A DNA stretch of 59,020 nt from Candidatus Desulfaltia sp. GTDB lineage: Bacteria; Acidobacteriota; Aminicenantia; Aminicenantales; UBA8522. Below the pieces are notes generated by a model, which searched no databases, had not been told where the DNA came from, and was given only the letters and a program-made list of their open reading frames with translations. Numbering within the stretch: position 1 is the stretch's first letter; every line of letters starts with the position of its first letter. Positions 40,728 to 58,554 of this stretch are shown piece by piece. The stretch lies in assembly GCA_035528895.1 (NCBI GenBank), contig DATKXS010000184.1, forward strand, positions 1 to 59,020. Direction: 5' to 3'. The position numbers were made by a program, and so were the translations under genes.

Positions 40728-43040
40728 ATGAAAAGGAAAGCTTATTGGCTGCTCTTCACCACCCTGAGCCTTGTGGTTGTTTTCGCCGGCTATGGGCACG
40801 GTTCCCCTGCCGCGGCCACGATAAATAAGATCACCGCTCAACCGGGTCAGCTGAACAACTGGGTCGTCCTGGAAACAGACAAGCCCCTGACTCTCACCCG
40901 GACCTACTACGCGGACAAGGCGCTCGTCCTCGAGCTCGACCACGTCAACCTCAGCGCTCAGCCCCAGATCCAGACGGCCGATTCCCCGCTCGTCACCGCT
41001 ATCCAGCTGGAAAGAGCGGGGGCCGAACGGGCCCGGTTGTCGATCCATCTCCGCGAACCCGTTCCCTTCACGGTCACGGTCGAGGAGAACCGGACGGTCG
41101 TGGCACTGAACAGGATCCAGAGGGGACCGGGAGATCCCCCGATCGAGACCCAGGTCCAGCAGCAGTTGGACGAGAGCGCCGGTTCGACGGTCTTCATGAA
41201 CACGGTGAACATGGAAAACAAGGAGGGCGAGGTTCAATTCCGGGCCAAGCTCAGCGGCGGCATCGTTTCTCAGGTCTTCACGCTGGAAAATCCCCTGCGC
41301 CTGGTTGTCGATGTCTTCAACGCGGTTTACGAAGAGCCGGCCTCCTTGCTTCCGGTTGATCGGTACGGATTGAAAAAGGTTCGGGTTGCCCAATTCCAGC
41401 TCAGCAATCCCCGCTCCATCACTCGGATGGTCTTCGACCTGAAGGAACCTTTATATTACAGTCTCCGCTCGGACAGCGACGAGATCGTCGTTTCGTTTAT
41501 CAAGAACGAGACTCCGGTCCTGGCCTCAGCCGGCGGACCCGCTGTCCGGAAGTCGGACCCCCCTCCCCCGCCCCCGGTTGTGAACGCTCCCCAGATCGAA
41601 GCCGCTCCCAAGGCCGAGGTCAAGTCCCTTGTTCCCGCCGCCCCGGCCAAAGCGGATAACGGAAAGAACGGCAAGGCCGCTACCGAAAAAAGCGCTCCGC
41701 CGCCCACCCGGCAAGAGGACTTGAACATCGGTCAGGAACAGGAACAGAGATACCAGCCCAAAACTCTCATGGAAAGAGAGGTCAAATACACGGGTGAGAT
41801 CATCTCCCTGAAGTTCAAGGATGCCGACCTCCGGGATGTCATCCTCTATCTCGGTGACTTCGCTAAGCTAAACGTCGTCTTCGACCCCGAGGTCAGGGGC
41901 GTCGTGACCTGTAACCTCGAGGATGTCCCCTGGGATCAAGCCCTTGATATTCTTCTCCGCAATAACAAGCTCGGCAAGGTCCTGGAGGGGAACGTCCTCC
42001 GCATCGCCCCGGTCAGCGTGCTGACCCGGGAGGACGAGGACCAGAGAAAGCTACGGGAGAGTAAAGAACTCGCCGGTCCGATCATCGTCAAGACAGTCAC
42101 CCTGTCCTATTCCAAGGCCCGGGACGTGATGGCTCTCCTGAACGCCAAGAAATCACAGCGGGGCGAGATCACCATCGACGAACGGACGAACACGCTGATC
42201 ATCTCCGACGTCCGGGAGAACCTGGACCTCCTCGAGAGACTGCTCTCCGTCCTGGACACGCCCACGCCGCAGGTGTCGATCGAAGCGCGGATCGTCGAGG
42301 CCACCTCGACCTTCATCCGCAACCTCGGCATCCAGTGGGGCTGGCGTGGAGTGGCCGATCCTTTCTACGGAAACCAGACCAGCCTCCAGTTCCCCAACAA
42401 GGCACTGGTGGACGGCTCGGTGATCCCCCAGGGCATCGTGACCAAGGGGATCGGCGGCCCGCTCGGCGGATACTCCATCAACCTGCCGGCGCCCGCCTTC
42501 AACACCGCCCTCGGGTTCTCCTTTGCCAACATCCTGGACACGTTCCGGCTGGACATGTACCTCTCCGCCCTGGAGCATGCCGGAGAAGGCCGGATCATCT
42601 CGAGTCCCAAGGTCACGACCCAGAACAACCAGCAGGCTGAGATCGTCCAAGGCCGGCAGATCCCGGTTCAGACGGTGGCCAATTTCACGGTCACGACGCG
42701 TTACGTCAATGCCGCCCTGGAGCTCCGGGCCACGCCCCAGATCACGGCCGAAGGGACGATCATCATGACGATCGAGATCCAGAACAACGCCGCCGATTTC
42801 GCCAACCTGGTCAACGGCATTCCGCCGATAACCACCCAAAGCGCCAGGACGACGGTGATGATCCCCGACGGCGGGACCACGGTCATCGGCGGCATCTACC
42901 GGACGGAGGATTCGATCACCCGAGAACGGGTACCGTTCCTGCACACCATACCCATCCTGGGCAACCTGTTCAAATCGTTCGCCCGGACGAAACAGAATCG
43001 GGAGTTACTCATCTTTATCACTCCCCGAATCATAAAATAA
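40728..43040 (+). CDS. pilQ: Type IV pilus secretin PilQ with AMIN domains
   Basis: AMIN-like repeats, YTGEIISLKFKDAD, VPWDQAL, PQVSIEARIVEA, VPFL..IPILGNLF and ELLIFITPRII. Confidence 0.95.
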   Translation: MKRKAYWLLFTTLSLVVVFAGYGHGSPAAATINKITAQPGQLNNWVVLETDKPLTLTRTYYADKALVLELDHVNLSAQPQIQTADSPLVTAIQLERAGAERARLSIHLREPVPFTVTVEENRTVVALNRIQRGPGDPPIETQVQQQLDESAGSTVFMNTVNMENKEGEVQFRAKLSGGIVSQVFTLENPLRLVVDVFNAVYEEPASLLPVDRYGLKKVRVAQFQLSNPRSITRMVFDLKEPLYYSLRSDSDEIVVSFIKNETPVLASAGGPAVRKSDPPPPPPVVNAPQIEAAPKAEVKSLVPAAPAKADNGKNGKAATEKSAPPPTRQEDLNIGQEQEQRYQPKTLMEREVKYTGEIISLKFKDADLRDVILYLGDFAKLNVVFDPEVRGVVTCNLEDVPWDQALDILLRNNKLGKVLEGNVLRIAPVSVLTREDEDQRKLRESKELAGPIIVKTVTLSYSKARDVMALLNAKKSQRGEITIDERTNTLIISDVRENLDLLERLLSVLDTPTPQVSIEARIVEATSTFIRNLGIQWGWRGVADPFYGNQTSLQFPNKALVDGSVIPQGIVTKGIGGPLGGYSINLPAPAFNTALGFSFANILDTFRLDMYLSALEHAGEGRIISSPKVTTQNNQQAEIVQGRQIPVQTVANFTVTTRYVNAALELRATPQITAEGTIIMTIEIQNNAADFANLVNGIPPITTQSARTTVMIPDGGTTVIGGIYRTEDSITRERVPFLHTIPILGNLFKSFARTKQNRELLIFITPRIIK

Positions 43041-43051
43041 GGGGTGCGACC

Positions 43052-43648
43052 ATGAAAAACATGAAGAAGGTATTCGGCACAGCGGTCATCATTTCGGCTT
43101 TCCTGGTGCTCAATTCCTGCAACCCGGTCGAGGACGATTCCCGGTCGGCCAGCTGGCTCATCATCGATAACATCCTGGGCACGGATGCCGACGGCACCAG
43201 CGCGAATTTCCTGCAGTCCGATGTCCTGTTGAGCACGGGAAGCGTCCGGTCGGATTCGGCCACGGCAACCCTCCGGGCGGAGACCCTGGACTCTGACCCG
43301 CTCCTGGGAACGTCCCAGTACAACGATATCGTCGTAACCCGTTACCTGGTGAGTTTCACCCGGACGGATGGCAGGAATGTCCCCGGTCAGGATGTCCCTT
43401 ATCCCTTCGAAGGGTCGATGTCCACCGTCGTCAAGGCCGGCTCGACGGCATCGTTCAGCCTGGTCCTGGTGAGGGAGGTCGCCAAGCTGGAGACTCCCCT
43501 GATCGAGCTGGGCGACCTCGGAGCGGAGATGGTCCTGGCCTGCACGGCCAAGGTCGAATTCTACGGCCATGACATGGTGAACAGGACGGTCAAGGCCACC
43601 GGCTACCTGACCGTCTATTTCGCCAATTACGTGGATCAGGCCAACTGA
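43052..43648 (+). CDS. Putative lipoprotein, beta-rich
   Basis: Signal II with lipobox LVLNSC. Directly after pilQ. Confidence 0.75.
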   Translation: MKNMKKVFGTAVIISAFLVLNSCNPVEDDSRSASWLIIDNILGTDADGTSANFLQSDVLLSTGSVRSDSATATLRAETLDSDPLLGTSQYNDIVVTRYLVSFTRTDGRNVPGQDVPYPFEGSMSTVVKAGSTASFSLVLVREVAKLETPLIELGDLGAEMVLACTAKVEFYGHDMVNRTVKATGYLTVYFANYVDQAN

Positions 43649-43677
43649 TAAAACCCGAGTATGAAAAGGTGATCAAC

Positions 43678-44154
43678 ATGAAGACAAACAAAAAGCCTGT
43701 TTTGATCGCGATCTCTTTGGCCTTGATTCTTTTCGCTCTCAATTCTTGCAAGAGTGATACCATCAGCGAACCTTCTCCCTTGGGCCCTTCTTCGATTGCG
43801 GTCATTCTCAACCTGACCGCCAGTCCCAATGCGATCATTGCGGGCCCTTACGAGCGGCAGATGGCCACGATCACAGCCACGCTGAAAAAATACGACGGGA
43901 TTCCTCTGGCCGGTCAAACTGTCTTGTTCAAAATAGACTCCCCCCGTGGCAGCCTCGGCTATTTCGAAGACAAATTGGATTTTCTGACAAAAACCACAGA
44001 CGCGAACGGTACTGTCCAGACCAGCTACTATGGCCCGCTCTACAACGAATTGGGGAGGGAAATGACGATCTACATCCGGGCGACGGTTGCCTGGGAGGGG
44101 TCCCAGTTTATTTCCGACAAAACCCCTATCTATGTTATTCGCAGCGACGAGTAA
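43678..44154 (+). CDS. Putative lipoprotein with a bacterial Ig-like (Big_1-like) domain
   Basis: Lipobox FALNSC, ITATLK..GIPLAGQTVLF and TTDANG. Confidence 0.72.
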   Translation: MKTNKKPVLIAISLALILFALNSCKSDTISEPSPLGPSSIAVILNLTASPNAIIAGPYERQMATITATLKKYDGIPLAGQTVLFKIDSPRGSLGYFEDKLDFLTKTTDANGTVQTSYYGPLYNELGREMTIYIRATVAWEGSQFISDKTPIYVIRSDE

Positions 44155-44225: not shown

Positions 44226-46376
44226 TTAATCGAAGAAAAAAACAGACTTTTTTGTTCGAATCCCCGGGAGTATTTGAGCCAGAATTTTGGCTATCTTCTC
44301 AGTTCTCCGTGCCCTGAGAGTCACCTGGACGCGGTGAAGCCCCCTCATTCTGGCTATCGGGGCCAAGGCAGGCCCGTAAACCTGAATGCCTTTTCCTATC
44401 GTTTTGACCTGACTGGCAAACATTCTCGCCGTTCCGGCCAGCCGGCGCAAATTCTCGCCGCTGAAGACGACTTCCGCCAAGGAAGAAAAGGGCGGATAGT
44501 CGAGAAGGCGGCGGAACTCGAGCTCCCGCTCGTAAAACGCCGCGTAGTCCCCCCGGGCTGCCTCCCGGATGCTGTAATGGTCGGGTGCGAACGTCTGGAT
44601 AAAAATCTCGGCGCCTTTTTCCTCCCGCAGGAAACGGAAGGCCCGGGAGATCGCCTGGTAGGCTTTCTGCCCCGACCGGAAGTCAGCCAGATGAAGGACC
44701 ATCTCCGGATGGAGGATGCCGACAAGCGCAACCGGCGGAAGGCCGGCTTTGTGGGCCAGGAATTGCGTCCCGACCAGGATATCGATTTCCCTTTTCTCAA
44801 ACCCCCCCAGAAGAGACTCCCTTTCCTTTTTCCGGCCGGCTTCGTCGGCGGCGAAGACCTCGATTCGCTTCCGGGGAAATGTCCGTCTCAAATCCTCGGC
44901 CACGGCCTCGATCCCGGCGCCCCTCCTGGCGGTCAGGCGCCCCCGGCAGCGCGGGCAATTCATCTCTGCCGGAACGGTCCGGCGGCAGGCATGGCAGACC
45001 AGCTTTCCTTCGCTCCTATGGTAGGCCAGGGAAAGATCACAGCGGTCGCAGCTCGGTACGAACCCGCATCGGTTGCAGACGAGATAGGAGGCATAACCCC
45101 GGCGGTTGAAAAACAGGATAGCTTGCTCGTGCCCGTCCAGCCGCTCCTGGATGGCCCTGATCAGCCGGGGATCGATCAGCCCTGAACGGCCGCGGAAATC
45201 GAGCAGGGTTACTTTCGGTCTGAAAGACTCAGGGCCGAGATCGATCAGATAACGGCCTTTTCGGGCCCGCTGGAAGGATTCGATCGTCGGCGCAGAGCTG
45301 CCCAGCACCAGGACGGCCTTCTCCTCCTCAGCCCGGAGCCTCGCTGCCCTCCGCACATCAAAGGGCAGTCCCTCCTGCTGAGAATAACTTTCGTCTTGCT
45401 CTCCGTCGAGGATGATCAGACGGAGGTTGTCGAGCGGCGAGAAAAGCGCCGAGCGGGATCCGATGACAACCTGGACACGGCGCTCTCTGACCTTTTGCCA
45501 TTCGAGTTCTCGCTGTCTGTCCGTCATCTGGCTGTGCAGGAGCGCCAGCCCGTCTCCAAGGCTCTTCTCGAACTCCTCGATCAAGGCCGGCGTTAGAGAG
45601 ATTTCGGGGACGAGAAAAAGGACGCGCCCCGAGCTCGAGACCGCCTCCCGAAGAAGACGGGAATAGACGGCCTTTCGCCGTCCGGCCGGACCGAAAAGGA
45701 GAAAGGGAGAGAAGGCCTTTTTCGCCATCGCCCCGGAGATCGTCCCGGCCGCCCGGAAGACCGTCTCACCCGAAGAGAAGTCCAGCTCGAGCTGGGCGGA
45801 TCCTCGGGTGGCCTCGGGTCGGATCCTTCGACGCACCTGCCGGACCGATTTCTCGACCGTAACAAGCTCCTTTTTCCGCATCCTGGACAGGAGAGCGGAG
45901 ACGTTCTTGACCCGGCTTTTCCTCTCCAGGAAAAGCGGCGAATGGGGCCTTGTCCCGAGCAGAGCCGCCAGTTGGCATTCGTCTTCGCTGAGGAGACCTT
46001 TCTCAAGGGCCTCTTTTCCTTGCGGCGTCAGGGAGACAGAAGCCCTGCTCCTGACGAAGAGAGAAGGCGGCACCGCGGACTGGAGCATTTCTCCCCAGGG
46101 AACAAGAAAGGATCGGCCGACCCTCCGGGCGAAGGCAAGAAGCTGGGGAGTGAAGAGAGGTGTCTCATCCAGCACCTCGGCGACGGGCTTGACCTTCATG
46201 GCCCGCTCGGGCTTTCTTTTCCTGAGACCGACCACGATTCCCGTCAGCCAACGTTCTCCGAGCGGGACGAGGACGCGCGAGCCCACCCGGGCTTTCCCTT
46301 CCATCTCCTTGGGCAGAGAGTATGTGTAGGGTTGATCGAGAGGGAGGGGCAGGATGACGTCGGCGTAGAGCGTCAT
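44226..46376 (-). CDS. priA: Primosomal protein N' (PriA) with degenerate helicase motifs
   Basis: Start [13 protein letters not shown] (ATGA overlap with udg). Four CxxC pairs, FFNRRGYAS and YPPF. ATPase motifs are altered. Confidence 0.92.
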   Translation of the reverse strand: MTLYADVILPLPLDQPYTYSLPKEMEGKARVGSRVLVPLGERWLTGIVVGLRKRKPERAMKVKPVAEVLDETPLFTPQLLAFARRVGRSFLVPWGEMLQSAVPPSLFVRSRASVSLTPQGKEALEKGLLSEDECQLAALLGTRPHSPLFLERKSRVKNVSALLSRMRKKELVTVEKSVRQVRRRIRPEATRGSAQLELDFSSGETVFRAAGTISGAMAKKAFSPFLLFGPAGRRKAVYSRLLREAVSSSGRVLFLVPEISLTPALIEEFEKSLGDGLALLHSQMTDRQRELEWQKVRERRVQVVIGSRSALFSPLDNLRLIILDGEQDESYSQQEGLPFDVRRAARLRAEEEKAVLVLGSSAPTIESFQRARKGRYLIDLGPESFRPKVTLLDFRGRSGLIDPRLIRAIQERLDGHEQAILFFNRRGYASYLVCNRCGFVPSCDRCDLSLAYHRSEGKLVCHACRRTVPAEMNCPRCRGRLTARRGAGIEAVAEDLRRTFPRKRIEVFAADEAGRKKERESLLGGFEKREIDILVGTQFLAHKAGLPPVALVGILHPEMVLHLADFRSGQKAYQAISRAFRFLREEKGAEIFIQTFAPDHYSIREAARGDYAAFYERELEFRRLLDYPPFSSLAEVVFSGENLRRLAGTARMFASQVKTIGKGIQVYGPALAPIARMRGLHRVQVTLRARRTEKIAKILAQILPGIRTKKSVFFFD

Positions 46377-47128
46377 GTTTTGCTGAGGACGGCCATGACC
46401 TGCTTCATGTCCTGCCAGACAAGCTTCTTGAGCTCCTTGTTGCCTTCGTTCCGGACGATATAGGATGGATGGAAGGTGGGCATAACGAGGATCTTCCCGG
46501 ACTCGACGAATTGCCCCCTCAGCTTGGTCATCCCCGTCGGTGAGGGATGGAAAAAGTCGGTAGCCACCTTGCCCAGCGACACGATCACCCTGGGGGCGAT
46601 CGCCTCGATCTGGGCGATGAGGTAGGGCCGGCAGGCCTCGATCTCTTCCCGGACCGGCGTGCGGTTCTTGGGCGGTCGGCATTTGACGATGTTGGTGATG
46701 TAGACGTCTTCGCGCTTGAAGCCCATGGCCGCGATGATCCTGCTCAGGAGCTGCCCGGCCCGGCCGACGAACGGTCGGCCCTGGGAGTCTTCGTCCGCAC
46801 CCGGACCCTCGCCGACGAACATCAATTCCGCCCGGTCATTGCCTTCCCCGGGGACGGCGTGCGTCCGACCCTGAGAGAGAGGGCAAAGGGTGCAGGTTAG
46901 GATCCTCTGGTTCAGGTCTTGGAGGACCTTCGACTTCTCCGCGCCGCCCGTTCGTTGGATATGGGATCGGGGAGCCGCCTCCGCGGACGGCGTTATACCC
47001 ACTTCCGGGCCCTTCATCAGAGTTTTTCTTTTTCCCCCCGGAGCAAAGATGAACTCGGCGCCGATATCGGAAAGGAAGCGGAGTTCCCGCTCGAGGCGCT
47101 CGAGGCGCGGCCTATTTTTTTCGGTCAA
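46373..47128 (-). CDS. udg: Uracil-DNA glycosylase family 4 (Fe-S)
   Basis: [26 protein letters not shown] and FHPSY. Confidence 0.93.
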
Positions 47129-48311
47129 GCAAAACCTCGATTCGATCCATGATCAGGCGGCTGATCTCCCGCTTGCTCGCTTTGTCCGATTCGACGGCCG
47201 TCCCTTTCCGGTCGATGATCATGACCTGGTTGTCCTCGGAATTGAACCCGATGTCTTTCCGGGAAACGTCGTTGGCGACGATGAGATCGAGCTTCTTCGC
47301 CCGGAGCTTTTTCAAGGCGTTGGCGGCGACGTCCTCGGTCTCGGCCGCGAACCCGACGATGATCCTCTTCGCCCGGCCGCCGTCCCGGCCCAGAGTGGCC
47401 AAGATATCTTCGGTCGGCACAAGCCTGAGCACCGGCGGTGCCTCTCTCTTCTTGATCTTCTTTTGGGACCGGCCGGCCGACCGAAAATCGGCCACGGCCG
47501 CGGCCATGATCAGGACATCGGCCCAGGCGAAATTCTTCTTGACCTCCCGGGCCATCTCGGCGGCGGTTTCCACTGCCCGCATCTCGGCACCGGGCGGGGG
47601 GAAAAGCGAGGTCGGCCCGGAGACGATAATAACCCTGGCTCCCCGTCGCAGAGCTTCCCCGGCCAGCTCGTAGCCCATCCTCCCCGAGGACCGGTTGGAG
47701 AGGTAGCGGACGGGATCGAGGGGTTCGCGGGTCGGTCCGGCCGTGACGAGGATGGTCCGGCCTTTTAGACTCTCGCTCCTCTCCAGAAGCTGCAGGCCGC
47801 ATTCAACGATCCTTTCGGGAGCGGGCAGGCGGCCCCAGCCTTCCTCCCGGCAGGCCAGATAGCCTTTTCCGGGCAGGATGAACTCGACGCCAGCAGCCTG
47901 GAGCTTCCGGATATTGGACTGGGTCTGGGGATGGAGATACATGGCTTCGTTCATGGCCGGGGCGATGAGCACCGGGCAGCGCACGGCCAGGTAAAACGTG
48001 GACAGGAAATCATCGGCCACCCCGCCGGCCAGCTTGGCGATAATGTTGGCCGTGGCCGGAGCGATGACCAGAAGAGAAATCTCCTCAGCCAGAGAGATAT
48101 GGGCGATCCGGTCCGTGTCCCCTTCTCCGAAGAGGTCGACCGCCGCCTCCCTGCCGGAGAGGGCGCTGAACAACTGGGGCGAGACGAGCTTGGCCGCGTT
48201 CGGTGTCATGATGACCTGGACGGCGATCCCTTTTTTCTGGAAACCGCGGAGGACCTCACAGGCCTTATAGATACTGACGGAGGAGCTGACGCCCAAAGCG
48301 ATTTTATGCAT
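47112..48311 (-). CDS. coaBC: Bifunctional phosphopantothenoylcysteine decarboxylase/ligase
   Basis: HISLA, APATAN, PAMNEAM, TAGPTRE..DPVRY and AAAVADF. Confidence 0.96.
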   Translation of the reverse strand: MHKIALGVSSSVSIYKACEVLRGFQKKGIAVQVIMTPNAAKLVSPQLFSALSGREAAVDLFGEGDTDRIAHISLAEEISLLVIAPATANIIAKLAGGVADDFLSTFYLAVRCPVLIAPAMNEAMYLHPQTQSNIRKLQAAGVEFILPGKGYLACREEGWGRLPAPERIVECGLQLLERSESLKGRTILVTAGPTREPLDPVRYLSNRSSGRMGYELAGEALRRGARVIIVSGPTSLFPPPGAEMRAVETAAEMAREVKKNFAWADVLIMAAAVADFRSAGRSQKKIKKREAPPVLRLVPTEDILATLGRDGGRAKRIIVGFAAETEDVAANALKKLRAKKLDLIVANDVSRKDIGFNSEDNQVMIIDRKGTAVESDKASKREISRLIMDRIEVLLDRKK

Positions 48312-53028: not shown

Positions 53029-54078
53029 TCAGAGGTTCCCGCTCAAGAATCCACGAAACGTGGCCTCCAGCCGCTCGGCCAGAGCGTCCCAGGTAAATTC
53101 CCTGATCTTCTGGTAGCCGGCGTTCGCCAGGCGAAGGCGCAATCCGGGATCATCGATCAGGCGCTTGATCTGCCGGGCCAGGAACCAGGGGTGGGTAAAG
53201 GGGACGACGAGGGCGGTCTTTTCATGAACCGCAAAATCGCGGGTGCCGCTGGCCGTGCAGACGACGGGAAGCCGGCAAGCCATGGCCTCGGCGGTTGTGT
53301 TGGACCAGCCGGCGCGTCGCTCGGCGCTGGCGAACATATCGGCCTGGGCGAAGAGCCAGGCCATCCGGGCTTGGGGAAGGTCGAGATAGAACTCGGAGGG
53401 CACGGATGTCTTGACGAGCGGGCGGGGATCACGTCTATCCCCGCCGACCAGGCTGTCGAAAAAAATCAAAAGGAGATGAGGATTCCCTCGATGAAGCTTC
53501 TCGACGGCCTTGATCACCTGCCGGACGCCCTTTCTCTTCTTGTAGATTCTGCCATAACAGAGAATCTTGAATTCCCTGCCCGGATCAGATTGGCCGGAAT
53601 CGGACTGAGCAGCAATCTGTCCCTCAGAAAGTGGCGCAGGAGATTCAGGCTCCGGCAACCGAAAAAATATCTCCGGATTTATTCCGCCCGGCGCTCGGAA
53701 ACAGCGGCGGCCGTATTTCCGCTCGACCCGCCGGCAGATGCCTTCAGAATTTCCCAGCAAGTGATAACCACGCCGGGCGACTTCTTTTTCCTTTTTATGG
53801 CCCTCGAGCACGAAGTAGAAGCATTTCGCCCTGGCCTTGAGGGCGTCGAACTGTTTCAGGATGGAATACTCGCTGCAGAGTCCGATGTCGAATTCGGCCT
53901 CCGTAACGGCCTCAAAGGACCGGACCTCTCCCCGGTACTCCAGCCAATCAGGCTTCTTCCCTGCCGGGGTGAAAAGTGTGAAGCCATGACCTCTTCGGGT
54001 CAACGCGTTGCCGATCTCGAGATAGCGGCGGACGCCGCCGAAGACTTCCACGTGGGGAAGGAGCGCCGCGATCCTCAT
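53029..54078 (-). CDS. Glycosyltransferase family 4
   Basis: FGGVRR, RKGV and WSNTTAEAMACRLPVV. Confidence 0.88.
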   Translation of the reverse strand: MRIAALLPHVEVFGGVRRYLEIGNALTRRGHGFTLFTPAGKKPDWLEYRGEVRSFEAVTEAEFDIGLCSEYSILKQFDALKARAKCFYFVLEGHKKEKEVARRGYHLLGNSEGICRRVERKYGRRCFRAPGGINPEIFFRLPEPESPAPLSEGQIAAQSDSGQSDPGREFKILCYGRIYKKRKGVRQVIKAVEKLHRGNPHLLLIFFDSLVGGDRRDPRPLVKTSVPSEFYLDLPQARMAWLFAQADMFASAERRAGWSNTTAEAMACRLPVVCTASGTRDFAVHEKTALVVPFTHPWFLARQIKRLIDDPGLRLRLANAGYQKIREFTWDALAERLEATFRGFLSGNL

Positions 54079-54137
54079 CTGCGAATGAACCTACCATGCG
54101 CCGTCGGGCCCGTCAAGCGCGTGGAGCGATTTCTCCA

Positions 54138-54166
54138 TTGACTTTCGGGGGGTGGGAAAATATACT
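54138..54166 (+). promoter_or_regulatory. Sigma70-like promoter
   Basis: TTGACT, 17-nt spacer, TATACT. Near-consensus, divergent from the GT4 gene. Confidence 0.6.
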
Positions 54167-54524
54167 ATAAGCCGCTTTGCTGATCGGCCTTTCGAAGCCA
54201 TGGCGAGGTAGGCCAATCGGCGAGTTTTTCGGTCTTCCCTGATTTCCCCTTAAACCCTTGAAATAGAAAGGATTCCAGAATTCCCCGAGATGTCAGGGCG
54301 TCCCAGAAAAGCGCATATTTGCCGGCCTTTGGGCGAACTATGGGCGAGATTATACCCTGCCGGGTCTGTTGACAGAGGGCGCGGGGGGCTGGTCGCAAGA
54401 GCCCGATGAATAGAAGTACAATAAACAAGAATTGATAGAGTTCTTGATAACGCATGAAATATGGATGTAGAATAGTTTGACAATGCCAAGCCAAAAATTT
54501 TCAGAGGGTTGAGGGGTAATCGAA

Positions 54525-57179
54525 ATGTCCAATTCATCGGCTAATAAATTCTGCAAGTCAGCTGATTTGACGAATGAGGCCAGCGTTGAATCTTTTTTCG
54601 TGCTTCGTCTTCTTGCCGATCTGGGCTATAAAGACAGCGAAATAAAAACGAAACAGGCTATTCAAACCCTTCGCATACCGAAAGGGCGTAGCAAGGAACT
54701 ATACAAACCCGACTTTCTTCTATTCTGCCATAAAAAGCCGCGATGGTTAATAGAAGCAAAGTCACCAACAGAGCGTATTGAGCAGTATACCTATCAATGT
54801 GCCGGTTATGCGCTCCAGATTAATCGCAAGTATCTTGAGCGACCCCTTCATTATTATATGTTAACTAATGGTTTCCTTACGCGCGTCTATGTGTGGGACC
54901 AAGAGGAAGCGATTCTCTCTTTGCGTTTCGAAGATGTAAACGACCATAATTCAAAATATGAAACTTTTCGTCGGCTTTTTTCCGCAGATGTGGCACGGTC
55001 CGGATGGAAAACAACTCCTAAGATTATGACTGAAGGTCACGAGCTAAGCCGTCCAACAATGGATGCCGTCAAAAAGGCATTCCTGCGTTGTCACCGTATC
55101 ATCTGGAAAACCGAAAAGATGAGTCCACAAGCAGCATTTATGGAATTTGCTAAAATACTCTTTGTGAAACTTTGGGAAGATCGGCGGCTCCGTGATGATC
55201 CAAATCTCCTTGAGATGATTACCAGGGGTAACCCCCTACCATCCAATAAGGTGCGGTTCGCCACGCGCTGGATTAGGGAGCAGGAATCCAACAATGCAAA
55301 TCCCATAGATGCGCTACTGTTCAGGCAATTAGTTGAGTCTTTGGAACAGGAAATCGAATCGCGCCAGAGAAAGCGAATATTCGAGTCAGACGAAAAGTTA
55401 AATATATCACCCGGCACGGTTCGACGTGTTGTCAAGGAGCTGGAGAATTACTACCTTTTCGGCATTGACGAAGATTTGAATGGGAGAATGTTCGAAGCAT
55501 TTCTCGCCGCAACGATGCGAGGCAAGGAACTTGGGCAGTACTTCACTCCGCGAAGTATTGTTAAATTGATGACTAAGCTCGCAAATCTCAAGGCTCAGCG
55601 TGGTCCAAATGGCATCGAGAAGCTTATCGATGCTTGTTGTGGTACAGGAGGCTTCTTAATTGAGGCTCTGACAGAAATGAGGCGGCAGGTTTATGATAAT
55701 CAGTCTCTTTCGAGCAGCGAACGCAGTGAGCTACTTGAAAAGGTGGCTAATCAAGCCATTTTTGGTATTGATGCAGGCCGTTCTCCAATGATTGCTCGCA
55801 TTGCTCGAATAAATATGTACCTTCATGGAGATGGCGGCAGTAGAGTATATATGACAGATGCCCTCAAACATCCTCCAGAGGCCTCTCTCGCCGACACAAT
55901 TGAAGTAAGGGGTGAAGTGGAGGAACTCCGTAGCCTTCTTGAAAAGGAGACTAAATTCGATGCCGCACTCACGAACCCTCCGTTTTCGATGGACTATTCG
56001 TCGAGCATCCCTGAAGAAAAGGACATGCTTGACACATATGAATTGACCACATATGGGGGTAAGCGCAGGAATTCCTTGAGATCGTCAGTTATCTTCATTG
56101 AAAGATATTGGAATCTACTCCGACCAGGCGGTCGGCTTCTTACCGTTATCGATGATAGCGTGCTCGCCGGCAAGAACTTTCCATTCGTACGCGATTTCAT
56201 CAGAGAACGGTTCATCATAAGGGCAGTGATTAGCTTGCACGGAGATGCCTTTCGTCGTGCCGGCGCAAGGGCAAAGACATCAATTCTCTACTTAGTAAAA
56301 AAGAGGAATCAGCCTGAGATACAACAAGGTTGTTTCGTTTATGAAAGCCAATATATAGGCCGCGATGATGTTCCGCCTAAGACGAGACCAAGCGACGCCG
56401 AACATGCCCGAAAACTTGCCGCCGATGAGACAGAAGAAATAACGACGACATTCAATTCTTTCCTTCAGGGACGGAATGGGCCGTGGCTCGTGCCGCCAGA
56501 CAAATTAAACGGCAGACTGGATGCAAAGCACCTTAGACCCTGGTCTGTTTCCGAACTGGAGAATAAATGGACGATTGCAGGAGCAGATTCCGATATTATC
56601 GAGAACCTTCTCGATCTAATTGAAGAATCTGTGGATCTTGACCCGAATACACGATATACTTTCCTTCGTATTAGCTACGAAGGCCGGCCTGAGAGGGGCG
56701 ATGCGGTATTGGGTAAAGAAGTGTCCTATAAGAAAGTGTTCAGGGCCAAAAAGGGCGATATAATCATTAGCAATATCAATGCGGTGAACAAGGCGATCTG
56801 CGTAATGCCGAACGACATGAGCGATTTGCTAATCTCGCCAGCGTTCACTGTGTTACGACTCAAACCTTCGTTGAGAGATCGCGTCGATCAAATGTATATT
56901 TGGTCGGTACTGCGGACCCCGGCGGTAGTTGCCGAATGGCTCTCACATACGACCGGCTTCGGGAGGCACTATGTTGACTGGAATCACATCCGTAAGCAGA
57001 GAATTCCGCTATTGCCTCCCGATAAACAGCAGCACATAGGAAGTATGCTTCGTGAATTATTTCAGCATGAGCAGGAGATATCGATTAAAAGGGCGGCTGC
57101 GGCTGATCAGCTCGCCATCCTGGGTTTGGATGATGATCGTGCTAAAGATAGGCTCATAAGGGCGAAGCCACCGAGATAA
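54525..57179 (+). CDS. Fused restriction-modification enzyme: HsdR_N-like nuclease + N6-adenine methyltransferase + TRD (Type IIG/IIC-like)
   Basis: KPDFLL..LIEAKSP (PD-D/ExK), GQYFTPRSIV, DACCGTGGFL, TNPPF and an HsdS-like C-terminus (ISNINAV..SPAFTVL). Visibly AT-richer than the flanks. Confidence 0.9.
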   Translation: MSNSSANKFCKSADLTNEASVESFFVLRLLADLGYKDSEIKTKQAIQTLRIPKGRSKELYKPDFLLFCHKKPRWLIEAKSPTERIEQYTYQCAGYALQINRKYLERPLHYYMLTNGFLTRVYVWDQEEAILSLRFEDVNDHNSKYETFRRLFSADVARSGWKTTPKIMTEGHELSRPTMDAVKKAFLRCHRIIWKTEKMSPQAAFMEFAKILFVKLWEDRRLRDDPNLLEMITRGNPLPSNKVRFATRWIREQESNNANPIDALLFRQLVESLEQEIESRQRKRIFESDEKLNISPGTVRRVVKELENYYLFGIDEDLNGRMFEAFLAATMRGKELGQYFTPRSIVKLMTKLANLKAQRGPNGIEKLIDACCGTGGFLIEALTEMRRQVYDNQSLSSSERSELLEKVANQAIFGIDAGRSPMIARIARINMYLHGDGGSRVYMTDALKHPPEASLADTIEVRGEVEELRSLLEKETKFDAALTNPPFSMDYSSSIPEEKDMLDTYELTTYGGKRRNSLRSSVIFIERYWNLLRPGGRLLTVIDDSVLAGKNFPFVRDFIRERFIIRAVISLHGDAFRRAGARAKTSILYLVKKRNQPEIQQGCFVYESQYIGRDDVPPKTRPSDAEHARKLAADETEEITTTFNSFLQGRNGPWLVPPDKLNGRLDAKHLRPWSVSELENKWTIAGADSDIIENLLDLIEESVDLDPNTRYTFLRISYEGRPERGDAVLGKEVSYKKVFRAKKGDIIISNINAVNKAICVMPNDMSDLLISPAFTVLRLKPSLRDRVDQMYIWSVLRTPAVVAEWLSHTTGFGRHYVDWNHIRKQRIPLLPPDKQQHIGSMLRELFQHEQEISIKRAAAADQLAILGLDDDRAKDRLIRAKPPR

Positions 57180-57333
57180 CGGTGGAATTTGAATGCCATT
57201 GGCCAATCCCCTCACGGCCGCAAAATCCGCCTTTCTCAGGTCTTGCGTCTTCCGGAGCTTGCGCCCCTTGTAGATATACCCAAACAGGCCATCCCGCTTC
57301 ACGATCTTCCCCATCTCGATGGCCTGATCGAAG

Positions 57334-58554
57334 TTAGAAAAGACACCGGATGAACTTGCCGATCTGCCACTTCCAGAACGGCCGGCCTTTGATGAACCGC
57401 TCGTAGCAGGACTGCGGAGGAGGCGGCTCTGGTTCCGGCTCAGGGGGAGTCGGTAACTCGGGCAGCGGCGGCTCATAATGATATTTTTCCTCCGGTTTTT
57501 TCCCGTTCAAGCCTTCGTAGATGGCAGAGACCGTTTTCTTCTGGCAACCCAAGTCCCCGCCTTTCGGGAGGTGCTCGATAACAATGTCGTTCCCGTAGGC
57601 CCTTGCTGTTTCGGCAATCATCTTCATCCGGGGCGCAGACGGACGGCGGCGTCCGGTAGACGCCTCGAAGTCGCACTCGGAGTCGCCGTTCCAGGAGCCG
57701 TCATTGGACAGCCAGATGCGGATGCCGTTGTCCTTCTTCCGGGCCCACCAGAAGAGGGACTGATGGAGACTCGATCCCGGCTCCGACCATTTTGGACCAT
57801 CGCCGACTCCATGGACTTCCTTCCAGATTGCGAGTTTTCCCTTCTCCCCAACCACGGACTCAACCCTTTTCTTCAGCGTGTCCAGGGCGCCCGCGTTTGC
57901 CGGCAGATATTTCCAGCTGCTATCGGACTCGTCCCAAACCCAGTCCCGGGACTGCATCGTGGCGCCATAAGTACAGCGTTCCGGTTTGAGCTTTCCGGAC
58001 GCCAGGCGGGGGAAGATAACCTTCTCGGCCACGTCGATGAACTGGTCGGGCATCTCGTTCCCCCAGGAGTACCAGGGCTCGAACTCGTCGAGCTCCAGGA
58101 TGCTCTTGTCGATGAACTTCCCAAAGAACGGGTGCGCCGCCTTTTCATACAGCGTCGTGATGCCGTTCAGGTTCGTCACCCACGGCGACCACTTTTTTGT
58201 AGGGCCGTGGAATTGACAGTTATCAGCCAGACACCATACGGTCGTGATGCCGTAGCTCTTCCCGATGGCGACGACCTTGCGGACGATAGGCCAGTACCAG
58301 CTGTTCCAGGCGCTCAGCTCGAAGTTCGATCCGATCAGGACGTATGGAGCGAACTGGCTCTTCATCCCTTCCGGGTGCTCTCCCCAGGGTGACCAGGGCA
58401 TGAGCCTCTGGAGAGTCGCCCCAGAGTTCGCCATCGCGCAATCCAGGGTGTTCACGGCCACCTCGTCGAGGATCCAGACGCCATCCTCGCGGCGGACATA
58501 TTCCTTCTCGCCTAACATGCAGATCTGGCTGTAGCAGGCTTTTCTTATGGTCAT
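57334..58554 (-). CDS. Phage-associated hypothetical protein, possible clan GH-A-like TIM-barrel hydrolase
   Basis: Trp-rich 406 aa with WGNE and a later IVIEH. Pro-rich linker near the C-terminus. GGAGGA RBS. Confidence 0.55.
   Translation of the reverse strand: MTIRKACYSQICMLGEKEYVRREDGVWILDEVAVNTLDCAMANSGATLQRLMPWSPWGEHPEGMKSQFAPYVLIGSNFELSAWNSWYWPIVRKVVAIGKSYGITTVWCLADNCQFHGPTKKWSPWVTNLNGITTLYEKAAHPFFGKFIDKSILELDEFEPWYSWGNEMPDQFIDVAEKVIFPRLASGKLKPERCTYGATMQSRDWVWDESDSSWKYLPANAGALDTLKKRVESVVGEKGKLAIWKEVHGVGDGPKWSEPGSSLHQSLFWWARKKDNGIRIWLSNDGSWNGDSECDFEASTGRRRPSAPRMKMIAETARAYGNDIVIEHLPKGGDLGCQKKTVSAIYEGLNGKKPEEKYHYEPPLPELPTPPEPEPEPPPPQSCYERFIKGRPFWKWQIGKFIRCLF

What the first reader, a model, noticed from the sequence alone, without database searches (positions are those of the whole stretch)
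44226..46376. PriA looks like a pseudohelicase
Seen: Walker A is GPAGRRKAVY (canonical GxTGSGKTEVY), Walker B is DGEQD (DEEH), motif III is GSSAPT (SATP), motif V is TQFLAHKA (TQMxAKG) and motif VI is QAISRAFR (QxxGRAGR). The 3'-binding domain, all eight Zn cysteines and the CTD are intact in a full-length ORF. Established: ATPase-dead PriA can still load the primosome, and Deinococcus radiodurans PriA is a described pseudohelicase. Inference: an independent loss of helicase activity in this lineage.
Basis: partly seen in the sequence, partly recalled or inferred. Interest (0 to 1): 0.65.

Follow-up and report, generated by a model that had tools for sequence, protein, structure and literature searches.

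The report
Motor-dead PriA in Aminicenantes bacteria
This is the only copy of the replication-restart protein PriA in an uncultured Aminicenantes bacterium; it has lost the residues needed to burn ATP but is still kept by selection, as in nearly its whole class, which adds a lineage to the one published case (Deinococcus).

Summary
Window 44226-46376 (minus strand) encodes a 716-aa PriA with its 3'-DNA-binding domain, both RecA-like lobes, all eight zinc cysteines and the C-terminal domain. The ATP-site motifs are destroyed: there is no GK[S/T] anywhere, Walker B reads DGEQD, the motif III Thr and motif V KGH are gone, and both motif VI arginines are replaced.

- It is the only priA in the genome.
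- It is not a decaying gene. ω is 0.19-0.28 overall and 0.15-0.26 in the dead lobes (upper 95% bound 0.37 or less). Canonical PriAs of the same phylum give 0.11-0.22.
- All 44 PriAs examined from the order (Aminicenantales) and a sister family share the state. Four further families of the class are more eroded. One family of the class and 37 genomes of other Acidobacteriota classes are fully canonical.
- The loss is therefore old, nearly class-wide and independent of Deinococcus-Thermus. Whether it happened once or twice in the class is unresolved.

RecG is missing from every genome of the order sampled, nested inside the dead-PriA group. The link is only suggestive, because some canonical-PriA genomes also lack a RecG hit. 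ATPase and helicase loss is inferred from sequence and not measured. This is a new member of a known kind; interest is moderate.

The parts
44226..46376 (-). priA coding sequence: 716 aa plus TAA stop. The ATG at 46376 overlaps the stop of the upstream UDG gene (ATGA).
   Evidence: Orthologs in 29 relatives start at the same M-x-x-[YF]-A-[DE]-V. TIGR00595 scores 421 bits against a cut-off of 230.
46068..46361 (-). 3'-DNA-binding domain (aa 6-103), intact
   Evidence: PF17764 scores 93.5 bits over the full profile length. Y19, G32, G46, G95 and P103 are kept in 98-100% of the clade.
45837..46049 (-). Winged-helix-like region (aa ~110-180), the most variable part
   Evidence: Secondary structure of the AF2 model. 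Highest dN/dS of the domains in several pairs, 0.24-0.53.
45663..45695 (-). Walker A (motif I) remnant FGPAGRRKAVY. It has a one-residue deletion and no GK[S/T]. R234 is invariant in the order.
   Evidence: R234 is invariant in 68 Aminicenantales PriAs.
45591..45614 (-). Motif Ia LVPEISLT, retained
   Evidence: P257 is kept in 100%, E258 in 98% and I259 in 80% of the degenerate clade.
45384..45413 (-). Walker B (motif II) ILDGEQDESY. Here DEEH has become DGEQ. The closest relatives read DEEQ.
   Evidence: The Gly at the first Glu is specific to this genome and a few others.
45360..45383 (-). Aromatic-rich loop equivalent SQQEGLPF (E. coli KQQEGWRY). The Q-Q-E is kept; the Trp and Arg are replaced.
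   Evidence: Alignment. ARL residues and their roles come from PMC5175346. The Arg at position 338 is kept in 0 of 44 sequences.
45285..45305 (-). Motif III remnant LGSSAPT (canonical GSATPS)
   Evidence: The Thr is kept in 11% of the clade.
45093..45113 (-). Motif IV region FFNRRGY, retained
   Evidence: N424 is kept in 95%, R425 in 98%, R426 in 86% and G427 in 100%.
44946..45077 (-). Cys-rich region, four CxxC pairs (two-zinc module), intact
   Evidence: PF18319. All eight Cys are kept in 100% of 44 sequences and are invariant in 68 sequences.
44736..44774 (-). Motif V remnant VGTQFLAHKAGLP. G-T-Q is kept; K-G-H is replaced.
   Evidence: K542, G543 and H544 are kept in 0%.
44622..44660 (-). 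Motif VI remnant YQAISRAFRFLRE. Both arginines of GRxGR are lost; the first is replaced by a clade-conserved Phe.
   Evidence: G581 is kept in 7%, R582 in 0% (Phe in 34 of 44) and R585 in 5%.
44247..44492 (-). PriA C-terminal domain (aa 629-710), intact
   Evidence: PF18074 scores 52.8 bits. G668 and P669 are kept in 95% and R682 in 89%.
46373..47128 (-). Upstream gene: uracil-DNA glycosylase superfamily protein. Its stop overlaps the priA start.
   Evidence: PF03167 scores 144.9 bits. ATGA overlap shown.
47112..48311 (-). Upstream gene coaBC (Flavoprotein + DFP domains), overlapping the UDG gene by 17 nt. It is probably in the same operon as udg-priA.
   Evidence: PF02441 and PF04127. ORF coordinates.

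Best explanation
This is the organism's single, functional priA gene, and its product is a pseudohelicase.

Shown:
- It keeps the complete PriA architecture: 3'BD, winged-helix region, two RecA-like lobes, a two-zinc Cys-rich region and the CTD.
- It keeps the DNA-contacting elements: motif Ia, motif IV, G-T-Q of motif V and Q-Q-E of the aromatic-rich loop.
- It has lost the residues that bind and hydrolyse ATP: the P-loop GK[S/T], the motif III Thr, motif V KGH, the motif VI arginine fingers, and in this genome also the first Glu of DEEH.
- It has lost the residues that couple ATP hydrolysis to DNA binding (aromatic-rich-loop Trp and Arg).

Inferred mechanism:
- The protein recognises abandoned forks and D-loops through the 3'BD, the CRR and the helicase-lobe surface.
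- It acts as an ATP-independent platform that recruits the replicative helicase DnaB. Recruitment probably goes through the DnaC/DnaI-family loader that the genome encodes, since DciA is absent.
- This matches E. coli PriA K230R (priA300) and D. radiodurans PriA.

The state arose in an ancestor of most of the class that contains Aminicenantales, independently of Deinococcus-Thermus, and has been maintained by purifying selection since.
For: **Identity as PriA**
- Pfam and NCBIfam calls.
- End-to-end HMMER alignment to 4NL4, 6DGD and 8FAK.
- AF2 model with pLDDT 84 and pTM 0.81. The nine best PDB matches are all PriA; the best is 8FAK_H with TM 0.80/0.88.

**Dead ATP site**
- Motif strings and no GK[S/T] anywhere.
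- Site-specific loss: 0-11% retention at ATP-site positions against 100% at the eight Cys and mostly 80-100% at DNA-binding and structural positions.
- The first four P-loop positions are hypervariable among relatives, while R-[RK]-E-x-[VI]-Y is conserved.
- Published genetics and biochemistry: K230R, K230A and K230D abolish ATPase and helicase activity but priA300 cells restart replication (PMC5778457). D. radiodurans PriA carries K to R, has no ATPase or unwinding activity, and still binds forks and DnaB (PMC4504706). ARL W333A and Y335A abolish unwinding (PMC5175346).

**Still functional**
- Single copy.
- Intact ORF in over 100 genomes and metagenome clusters.
- ω is 0.19-0.28 overall and 0.15-0.26 in the RecA lobes, with bootstrap upper bounds of 0.39 or less. 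Canonical PriA pairs give 0.11-0.22.
- The gene is translationally coupled to an upstream DNA-repair gene.

**Independent origin**
- Other Acidobacteriota classes and family f10 of the same class are canonical.
- Among the 120 best homologs listed (47% identity or more), none is named Deinococcus-Thermus.

**Partners**
- DnaB is present at 511 bits.
- A DnaC/DnaI-family AAA+ protein with an N-terminal Cys cluster is present.
- DciA is absent in 80 of 81 genomes of the class.
Against: - No biochemical data exist; loss of ATPase and helicase activity is inferred from motifs alone.
- This genus has a Lys at aa 235. HMMER aligns it with the catalytic Lys, so a deviant P-loop cannot be formally excluded for this genus. 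However, the position is Glu in 25 of 44 relatives.
- The Walker B Asp and third Glu stay conserved (91% and 100%) without an obvious catalytic reason.
- A second, weaker nucleotide site has been proposed for E. coli PriA and cannot be assessed here.
- The partner chain from PriA to DnaB in this lineage is unknown; no PriB, DnaT or DnaD search was possible.
- The genome is 93.5% complete, so a second priA in the missing part is not strictly excluded. Closed genomes of the order show one locus only.
Confidence: 0.85

Rival explanations
1. The protein keeps a weak or non-canonical NTPase or translocase activity. It would use a deviant P-loop (G-x-x-G-R-R-K in this genus) and the retained Walker B acidic residues, so it would be a slow or regulated motor and not a dead one.
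For: K235 can be aligned with E. coli K230. D324 and E326 of Walker B, and G-T-Q of motif V, are conserved. The RecA lobes are as constrained as the rest of the protein.
Against: - K235 is Glu in 25 of 44 clade members, so it is not under selection as a catalytic Lys.
- The Gly before the Lys and the Ser/Thr after it are both missing.
- The motif VI arginine fingers, motif V KGH and the motif III Thr are kept in 0-11%.
- This genome has also lost the first Glu of DEEH.
- In E. coli the single change K230R is enough to abolish activity.
Confidence: 0.07
2. The protein has been re-purposed. It still binds branched DNA but no longer serves replication restart, for example acting only as a fork-protection or regulatory factor, and DnaB reloading is handled by another route.
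For: - The downstream primosome partners are unidentified.
- The lineage has an unusual replication toolkit: no DciA anywhere in the class and no RecG in the order.
- The clade has fixed replacement residues rather than random decay: R234, F422, E558 and F582.
Against: - All domains that mediate restart in characterised PriAs are conserved: 3'BD, CRR and CTD.
- Helicase-dead PriA supports restart in E. coli, and D. radiodurans PriA binds DnaB.
- No other PriA-like gene exists that could take over.
Confidence: 0.06
3. The gene is a decaying relic (pseudogene in the making) of no functional importance.
For: Catalytic motifs are destroyed. A few relatives show a split or interrupted priA (G040 in two adjacent frames, G028 with an in-frame TGA).
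Against: - The ORF is full-length and of almost constant length (716 aa) in most of the order's genomes and metagenome clusters examined.
- ω is well below 1 in every domain, with tight bootstrap intervals.
- The eight Cys and many other positions are conserved at 100%.
Confidence: 0.02

Closest known systems
Deinococcus radiodurans / Deinococcus-Thermus PriA pseudohelicase (Lopper, Boone & Morrow 2015, PMC4504706)
   Same: - It is a full-length PriA ortholog with poor matches to motifs I and II.
- An Arg sits at the Walker A Lys position. Here that is the invariant R234 under the MAFFT alignment.
- The DNA-binding architecture is retained.
- It is the only priA in the genome.
- The state is lineage-wide rather than sporadic.
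   Different: - The origin is independent: sister Acidobacteriota and one family of the same class are canonical.
- The P-loop has a one-residue deletion and has also lost its glycines and its Ser/Thr.
- Motifs III, V and VI and the ARL Trp and Arg are lost as well.
- Within the class, erosion continues to forms of ~600-650 aa that no longer reach the TIGR00595 cut-off.
- D. radiodurans has DciA and gives a RecG-model hit in the control searches; this lineage has neither.
- The Deinococcus protein has been assayed; this one has not.
E. coli PriA K230R (priA300) and K230A/D engineered helicase-dead variants
   Same: The ATP site is inactivated while fork recognition and primosome assembly are preserved. 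This is the functional model for how the protein would work (PMC5778457).
   Different: Those are engineered single substitutions in an otherwise canonical protein that works with PriB, DnaT and DnaC. Here the inactivation is natural and spans several motifs, and the partners are unknown.
Canonical PriA replication-restart helicase (K. pneumoniae 4NL4/6DGD, E. coli 8FAK/6DCR; TIGR00595)
   Same: Same six-part architecture and fold. HMMER E = 5e-83 over aa 5-694 and Foldseek TM up to 0.80/0.88.
   Different: Identity is about 27%. All ATP-binding and hydrolysis signatures are absent.

Membership tests
PriA (primosomal protein N', TIGR00595; SF2 DNA helicase family) | N-terminal 3'-DNA-binding domain | tested here: met
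   PF17764 scores 93.5 bits over aa 6-103, the full profile.
PriA (primosomal protein N', TIGR00595; SF2 DNA helicase family) | Two RecA-like lobes with the PriA-specific Cys-rich two-zinc insert (CxxC x4) in lobe 2 | tested here: met
   PF18319 hit and four CxxC pairs at aa 434, 443, 461 and 474. The AF2 model matches PriA structures over the full length.
PriA (primosomal protein N', TIGR00595; SF2 DNA helicase family) | PriA C-terminal domain | tested here: met
   PF18074 scores 52.8 bits over aa 629-710.
PriA (primosomal protein N', TIGR00595; SF2 DNA helicase family) | Score above the curated equivalog cut-off | tested here: met
   TIGR00595 scores 420.9 bits against a cut-off of 230.35. 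The lineage-specific PRK05580 sub-models are all below their cut-offs.
PriA (primosomal protein N', TIGR00595; SF2 DNA helicase family) | SF2 ATPase motifs: I (GxxGxGKT), II (DEEH), III (SAT), V and VI (QxxGRxGR) | tested here: not met
   There is no GK[S/T]; Walker B reads DGEQ; motif III reads SSA; KGH is replaced by HKA; GRAGR is replaced by RAFRFLR. The protein is a PriA ortholog but fails the enzymatic signature.
PriA (primosomal protein N', TIGR00595; SF2 DNA helicase family) | DNA-dependent ATPase and 3'-5' helicase activity | not testable with these tools
   Requires purified protein.
PriA pseudohelicase (kind defined by D. radiodurans PriA, PMC4504706) | Clear descent from a helicase-active PriA ancestor | tested here: met
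   Orthology, plus canonical motifs in sister lineages of the same class and phylum.
PriA pseudohelicase (kind defined by D. radiodurans PriA, PMC4504706) | Catalytic Walker A Lys replaced, and poor match to motifs I and II | tested here: met
   R234 is invariant, the position after it is Glu in most relatives, and the P-loop is one residue short.
PriA pseudohelicase (kind defined by D. radiodurans PriA, PMC4504706) | No ATP hydrolysis and no duplex unwinding | not testable with these tools
   Inferred only.
PriA pseudohelicase (kind defined by D. radiodurans PriA, PMC4504706) | Retained ssDNA and fork binding, and interaction with the cognate DnaB | not testable with these tools
   Indirect support only: conservation of the 3'BD, CRR, motifs Ia and IV, and the ARL Q-Q-E, and DnaB present in the genome.
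PriA pseudohelicase (kind defined by D. radiodurans PriA, PMC4504706) | Maintained by purifying selection as the sole priA | tested here: met
Deinococcus-Thermus PriA clade (common descent with the published case) | Phylogenetic membership in, or transfer from, Deinococcus-Thermus | tested here: not met
   The PriA tree places it inside Acidobacteriota, next to canonical class and phylum relatives. Among the 120 best database homologs, all that carry a taxon name are Aminicenantes or Acidobacteriota. No Deinococcus sequence was placed in the tree directly.

The most novel reading that the evidence does not exclude
The dead ATP cleft was rebuilt and did not simply decay. Fixed replacement residues lock the two RecA lobes into a permanent, nucleotide-independent, fork-bound-like conformation. 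These are R234 at the Lys site, F582 at the first arginine finger, E558, Q543 and F422, together with the retained Walker B D324 and E326. The AF2 model is closest to fork-bound 8FAK.

Once PriA could no longer unwind DNA, RecG became dispensable and was lost in Aminicenantales. One role proposed for RecG in E. coli is to restrain PriA helicase. This would be a natural replay of the E. coli result that priA300 suppresses recG phenotypes.

The class would then hold a stepwise series: canonical PriA with RecG, then dead PriA with RecG, then dead PriA without RecG.
Probability: 0.2. Interest if true: 0.7.

Novelty: new member of a known kind. Interest (0 to 1): 0.5.

Why it matters
[quoted passage not shown] A second, independent and ancient loss covers most of a widespread uncultured class. 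It comes with a graded series from canonical to extremely eroded PriA inside one class.

This supports the view that PriA's indispensable job is fork recognition and helicase recruitment, and that unwinding is not essential. It also provides natural variants that show which residues matter for that scaffold role.

The nested loss of RecG gives a comparative-genomics handle on the PriA-RecG antagonism, which so far is known only from E. coli genetics.

In practice, the most eroded forms fall below the TIGR00595 cut-off used for genome annotation, so they may not be named PriA.

Tried and rejected
1. **RecG loss drove PriA inactivation: rejected as stated.** RecG is present in families f11, f12, f71 and f72, whose PriAs are even more degenerate. 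PriA death is therefore the wider state and RecG loss is nested within it. A strict coupling is also rejected: nine of the ten RecG-hit-lacking genomes elsewhere in the phylum were checked and all have canonical PriA.

2. **DciA absence tracks the PriA state: rejected.** DciA is absent in 80 of 81 genomes of the class, including the canonical-PriA family f10.

3. **A single inactivation event: not established.** The full-column tree supports one clade of dead PriAs (SH-aLRT 97). With the motif columns removed, f10 moves next to the f11/f72/f71/f12 group (support 87). One or two events remain possible, and long branches meet in that part of the tree.

4. **Second priA copy: none.** The extra TIGR00595 hits in the genome are Mfd (1146-aa frame) and UvrB.

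5. **Rfam scan of the window:** nothing at gathering thresholds.

7. **Literature:** no relevant paper links Aminicenantes and PriA, and no published motor-dead PriA lineage other than Deinococcus-Thermus was found.

Full report
**1. What is there**

The finding's coordinates hold a minus-strand ORF. The longest ATG-initiated frame runs to 46682. All orthologs start at the internal M-T-L-Y-A-D-V, which is the ATG at 46376. This ATG overlaps the TGA of the upstream gene (…AAAACATGACG…). That upstream gene is a uracil-DNA-glycosylase-superfamily gene (PF03167, 145 bits), and it is preceded by coaBC.

The 716-aa product is unmistakably PriA:
- PriA_3primeBD 93.5 bits, Zn_ribbon_PriA 29.8 bits and PriA_C 52.8 bits, with only weak DEAD and Helicase_C hits.
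- TIGR00595 scores 421 bits against a cut-off of 230.
- HMMER alignment to K. pneumoniae and E. coli PriA structures covers aa 5-694 at E = 5e-83.
- An AlphaFold2 model built on 68 relatives has pLDDT 84.1 and pTM 0.81. Its nine best PDB matches are all PriA. The best is fork-bound E. coli PriA 8FAK_H, with TM 0.80/0.88 and rmsd 4.4 Å.

**2.

Against solved PriAs and 35 canonical PriAs of the same phylum:

| Element | Window protein | Canonical |
|---|---|---|
| Walker A | FG-PAGRRKAVY | HGVTGSGKTEVY |
| Walker B | ILDGEQD | IVDEEHD |
| Motif III | GSSAPT | GSATPS |
| Motif V | GTQFLAHKAGLP | GTQMIAKGHDFP |
| Motif VI | QAISRAFRFLRE | QVAGRAGRG |

- Walker A has a one-residue deletion.
- No GK[S/T] occurs anywhere in the protein.
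- The Walker A alignment is ambiguous. HMMER pairs K235 with E. coli K230 and deletes the Thr. MAFFT pairs R234 with the Lys.
- R234 is invariant in 68 Aminicenantales PriAs. Position 235 is Glu in 25 of 44 relatives. The Lys in this genus is therefore not a conserved catalytic residue.
- An Arg at the Lys position is what Deinococcus-Thermus PriAs and the engineered E. coli K230R carry (PMC4504706; PMC5778457).
- The aromatic-rich loop that couples DNA binding to ATP hydrolysis is KQQEGWRY in E. coli. W333A and Y335A abolish unwinding, while Q329, Q330 and E331 crosslink to DNA (PMC5175346). Here it reads SQQEGLPF: Q-Q-E is kept and the Trp and Arg are gone. The Arg is kept in 0 of 44 clade members.

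**3. The loss is site-specific**

I took the alignment positions that are at least 90% conserved in the 35 canonical PriAs. I then asked how often the 44 non-redundant sequences of the window's order plus family f13 keep the same residue.
- Retention is 0-11% at Walker A T-G-S-G-K-T, the motif III Thr, motif V K-G-H and T550, and motif VI Q/G/R/G/R. The same holds for R338, R383, M394 and Q609.
- Retention is 100% at all eight cysteines.
- Retention is mostly 80-100% at motif Ia (P-E-I), H281, W293, G306, R308, motif IV N-R-R-G, the G-T of motif V, D565, F614, E618, R622, Y-P-P 627-629, and conserved 3'BD and CTD positions. The motif V Gln is kept in 75%.
- Several positions carry new, clade-conserved residues rather than noise: R234, F422, E558 (44 of 44), F582 (34 of 44) and Q543 (36 of 44).
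- The first four P-loop positions are hypervariable among relatives (PAGR, SLPR, SRSR, PPER, EPEK and others). This is as expected if no nucleotide is bound.

**4. Selection and copy number**

- Pairwise Nei-Gojobori ω between the window gene and genus-level orthologs is 0.19-0.28.
- Codon bootstraps give 95% upper bounds of 0.39 or less for the whole gene.
- The two RecA lobes give ω = 0.15-0.26, with upper bounds of 0.37 or less. The dead motor is as constrained as the DNA-binding parts.
- Canonical PriA pairs of the same phylum give 0.11-0.22 at comparable divergence, apart from one outlier at 0.40. Constraint here is therefore slightly relaxed at most.
- The window's genome (3.02 Mb, 93.5% complete) has one priA. 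The other TIGR00595 hits are Mfd and UvrB.
- Single-contig genomes of the order also show one locus.

**5. Distribution**

Record titles identify the lineage as Candidatus Aminicenantes / Aminicenantales, within Acidobacteriota.
- All 30 orthologs from the genus, family and order are degenerate, as are 21 more from the order.
- 28 genomes from other classes of the phylum are fully canonical, and so are 9 further ones.

Within the class:
- Family f10 (1.5-2.4 Mb genomes) is canonical (GITGSGKTF, DEEHD, SATPS, GTQLISKGHNFP, GRAGR).
- The window's order and f13 share the one-residue-deleted P-loop form.
- f11 and f72 (~630 aa) are more degenerate.
- f71 and f12 (~600-720 aa) have lost even Walker B (ERAGS) and motif V. 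They score only 55-150 bits on TIGR00595, below its cut-off. The f71 and f12 representatives scanned still have a significant PriA 3'BD (64 and 41 bits) and their Cys clusters.

A PriA tree rooted on the other classes puts f10 as sister to one clade of all the dead PriAs (SH-aLRT 97). With the motif-bearing columns removed, f10 moves beside f11/f72/f71/f12 (support 87). The (order + f13) clade stays at 97-99. One or two inactivation events are both compatible with the data, and long branches meet in that region.

The origin is independent of Deinococcus-Thermus. None of the 120 best homologs listed (47% identity or more) in a 5.8-billion-protein search is named Deinococcus-Thermus; those that carry a taxon name are Aminicenantes or Acidobacteriota, and all are annotated plainly as "primosomal protein N'".

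**6. Replication context**

- The genome has a canonical DnaB (511 bits).
- DciA is absent from it, and from 80 of 81 genomes of the class, including f10.
- It encodes a 247-aa DnaC/DnaI-family AAA+ protein with an N-terminal Cys cluster, next to a sigma-70 gene. It scores 142 bits on PRK08116, 90 on DnaI and 80 on DnaC, all below the equivalog cut-offs. This is the likely helicase loader.

RecG:
- RecG is absent from the window's genome; only Mfd is hit.
- It is absent from all 50 sampled genomes of the order at E ≤ 1e-120.
- At E ≤ 1e-3 it is absent from four closed and six near-closed genomes of the order, and from f13 genus g26.
- Full-length RecG is present in f10, f11, f12, f71 and f72, and in one f13 genome with 9% contamination.
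- It is present in 128 of 138 genomes of other classes.

[quoted passage not shown] The nested pattern, with dead PriA widespread and RecG lost only inside it, fits the idea that a dead PriA makes RecG dispensable.

The link is not strict, for three reasons:
- It rests on one or two evolutionary events.
- Dead-PriA lineages mostly keep RecG.
- Ten genomes elsewhere in the phylum lack a RecG hit at that threshold, including 3 of 3 in family f22. The nine checked have canonical PriA.

I rate it as a lead.

**7. Mechanism**

Shown:
- PriA orthology, architecture and fold.
- Destroyed ATP-site and coupling residues.
- Retained DNA-binding and structural residues.
- A single copy under purifying selection.
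- An ancient and independent origin.

Inferred:
- The protein does not hydrolyse ATP or unwind DNA.
- It acts as an ATP-independent fork-recognition platform that recruits DnaB, probably through the DnaC/DnaI-like loader.
- This follows the behaviour of E. coli PriA K230R and D. radiodurans PriA.

**8. Novelty**

- Published work names Deinococcus(-Thermus) as the only exception to conserved PriA helicase motifs.
- I found no paper on Aminicenantes PriA and no other published motor-dead lineage.
- Unchecked notes of this scan report similar motor-dead PriAs in CPR/Parcubacteria, Synergistota and Omnitrophota. Two first-reader notes concern close relatives of this protein. The phenomenon therefore looks recurrent in uncultured bacteria, which lowers the surprise of this single case.
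- Specific to this case are the graded erosion series inside one class and the nested RecG loss.

**Verdict:** a real feature and a new member of a known kind, of moderate interest.

**9. Limits**

- There is no biochemistry.
- Family, order and class labels are the tool's anonymous GTDB ranks.

Noticed in passing
Own genome and relatives (genome search); not in the window: RecG is absent from the window's genome and from all 50 sampled genomes of its order, including four single-contig genomes; only Mfd is hit. It is present in the other families of the class and in 128 of 138 other genomes of the phylum. Family f22 of another class also lacks a RecG hit (3 of 3), although its PriA is canonical in the two genomes where a PriA locus was found (Walker A reads GVTASGKT).
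   Followed up: partly
G000 contig 52 (L116:1480-2223, minus strand); class-wide search: DciA (PF05258) is undetectable in 80 of 81 genomes of the class. The genome instead encodes a 247-aa DnaC/DnaI-family AAA+ protein with an N-terminal CxxC…CxC cluster, immediately downstream of a sigma-70 gene. It is the likely DnaB loader. All equivalog scores are below their cut-offs.
   Followed up: partly
L101-L107, L109, L110 (families f71 and f12 of the same class): These are extremely eroded PriA orthologs of ~600-720 aa. The 3'BD and Cys clusters are kept, but Walker B reads ERAGS or IDEGP, motif V is unrecognisable and the winged-helix region is shortened. TIGR00595 scores across these families are only 55-150 bits, below the 230-bit cut-off, so they may not be named PriA in annotation.
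   Followed up: partly
G040:C1:66960-69106, G028:C28:63878-66024 and G021:C16:9095-10912: In a few genomes of the order priA looks interrupted or remodelled. In the closed genome G040 it is two adjacent frames (aa 1-411 and 416-715). G028 has an in-frame TGA. In G021 nothing aligns to the winged-helix region within a 911-aa frame. These could be sequencing errors, real splits or local decay.
   Followed up: no
window 46373-48311 (-): The gene order coaBC, UDG-superfamily glycosylase, priA has overlapping stop and start codons (ATGA at udg/priA; a 17-nt overlap at coaBC/udg). This suggests one operon that couples a base-excision-repair gene to priA.
   Followed up: partly
window 40728-44154 (+): A PilQ-type secretin (770 aa; AMIN, STN, Secretin_N and Secretin domains) is followed by two small ORFs with signal-peptide-like N-termini. 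One (198 aa) has no Pfam hit and the other (161 aa) has a weak Big_1 Ig-like hit. They converge on priA.
   Followed up: partly
window ~54000-58000: GC content drops to 0.47-0.52 against about 0.60 in the rest of the window. This may be foreign or mobile DNA. No Rfam family is found anywhere in the window.
   Followed up: no
AF2 model ma4b5c31ea248: The predicted structure superposes much better on fork-bound E. coli PriA (8FAK_H, rmsd 4.4 Å, TM 0.80/0.88) than on apo or ADP-bound K. pneumoniae PriA (4NL4, rmsd 14 Å, TM 0.68/0.70). This could be a modelling bias or a hint of a fixed open conformation.
   Followed up: no
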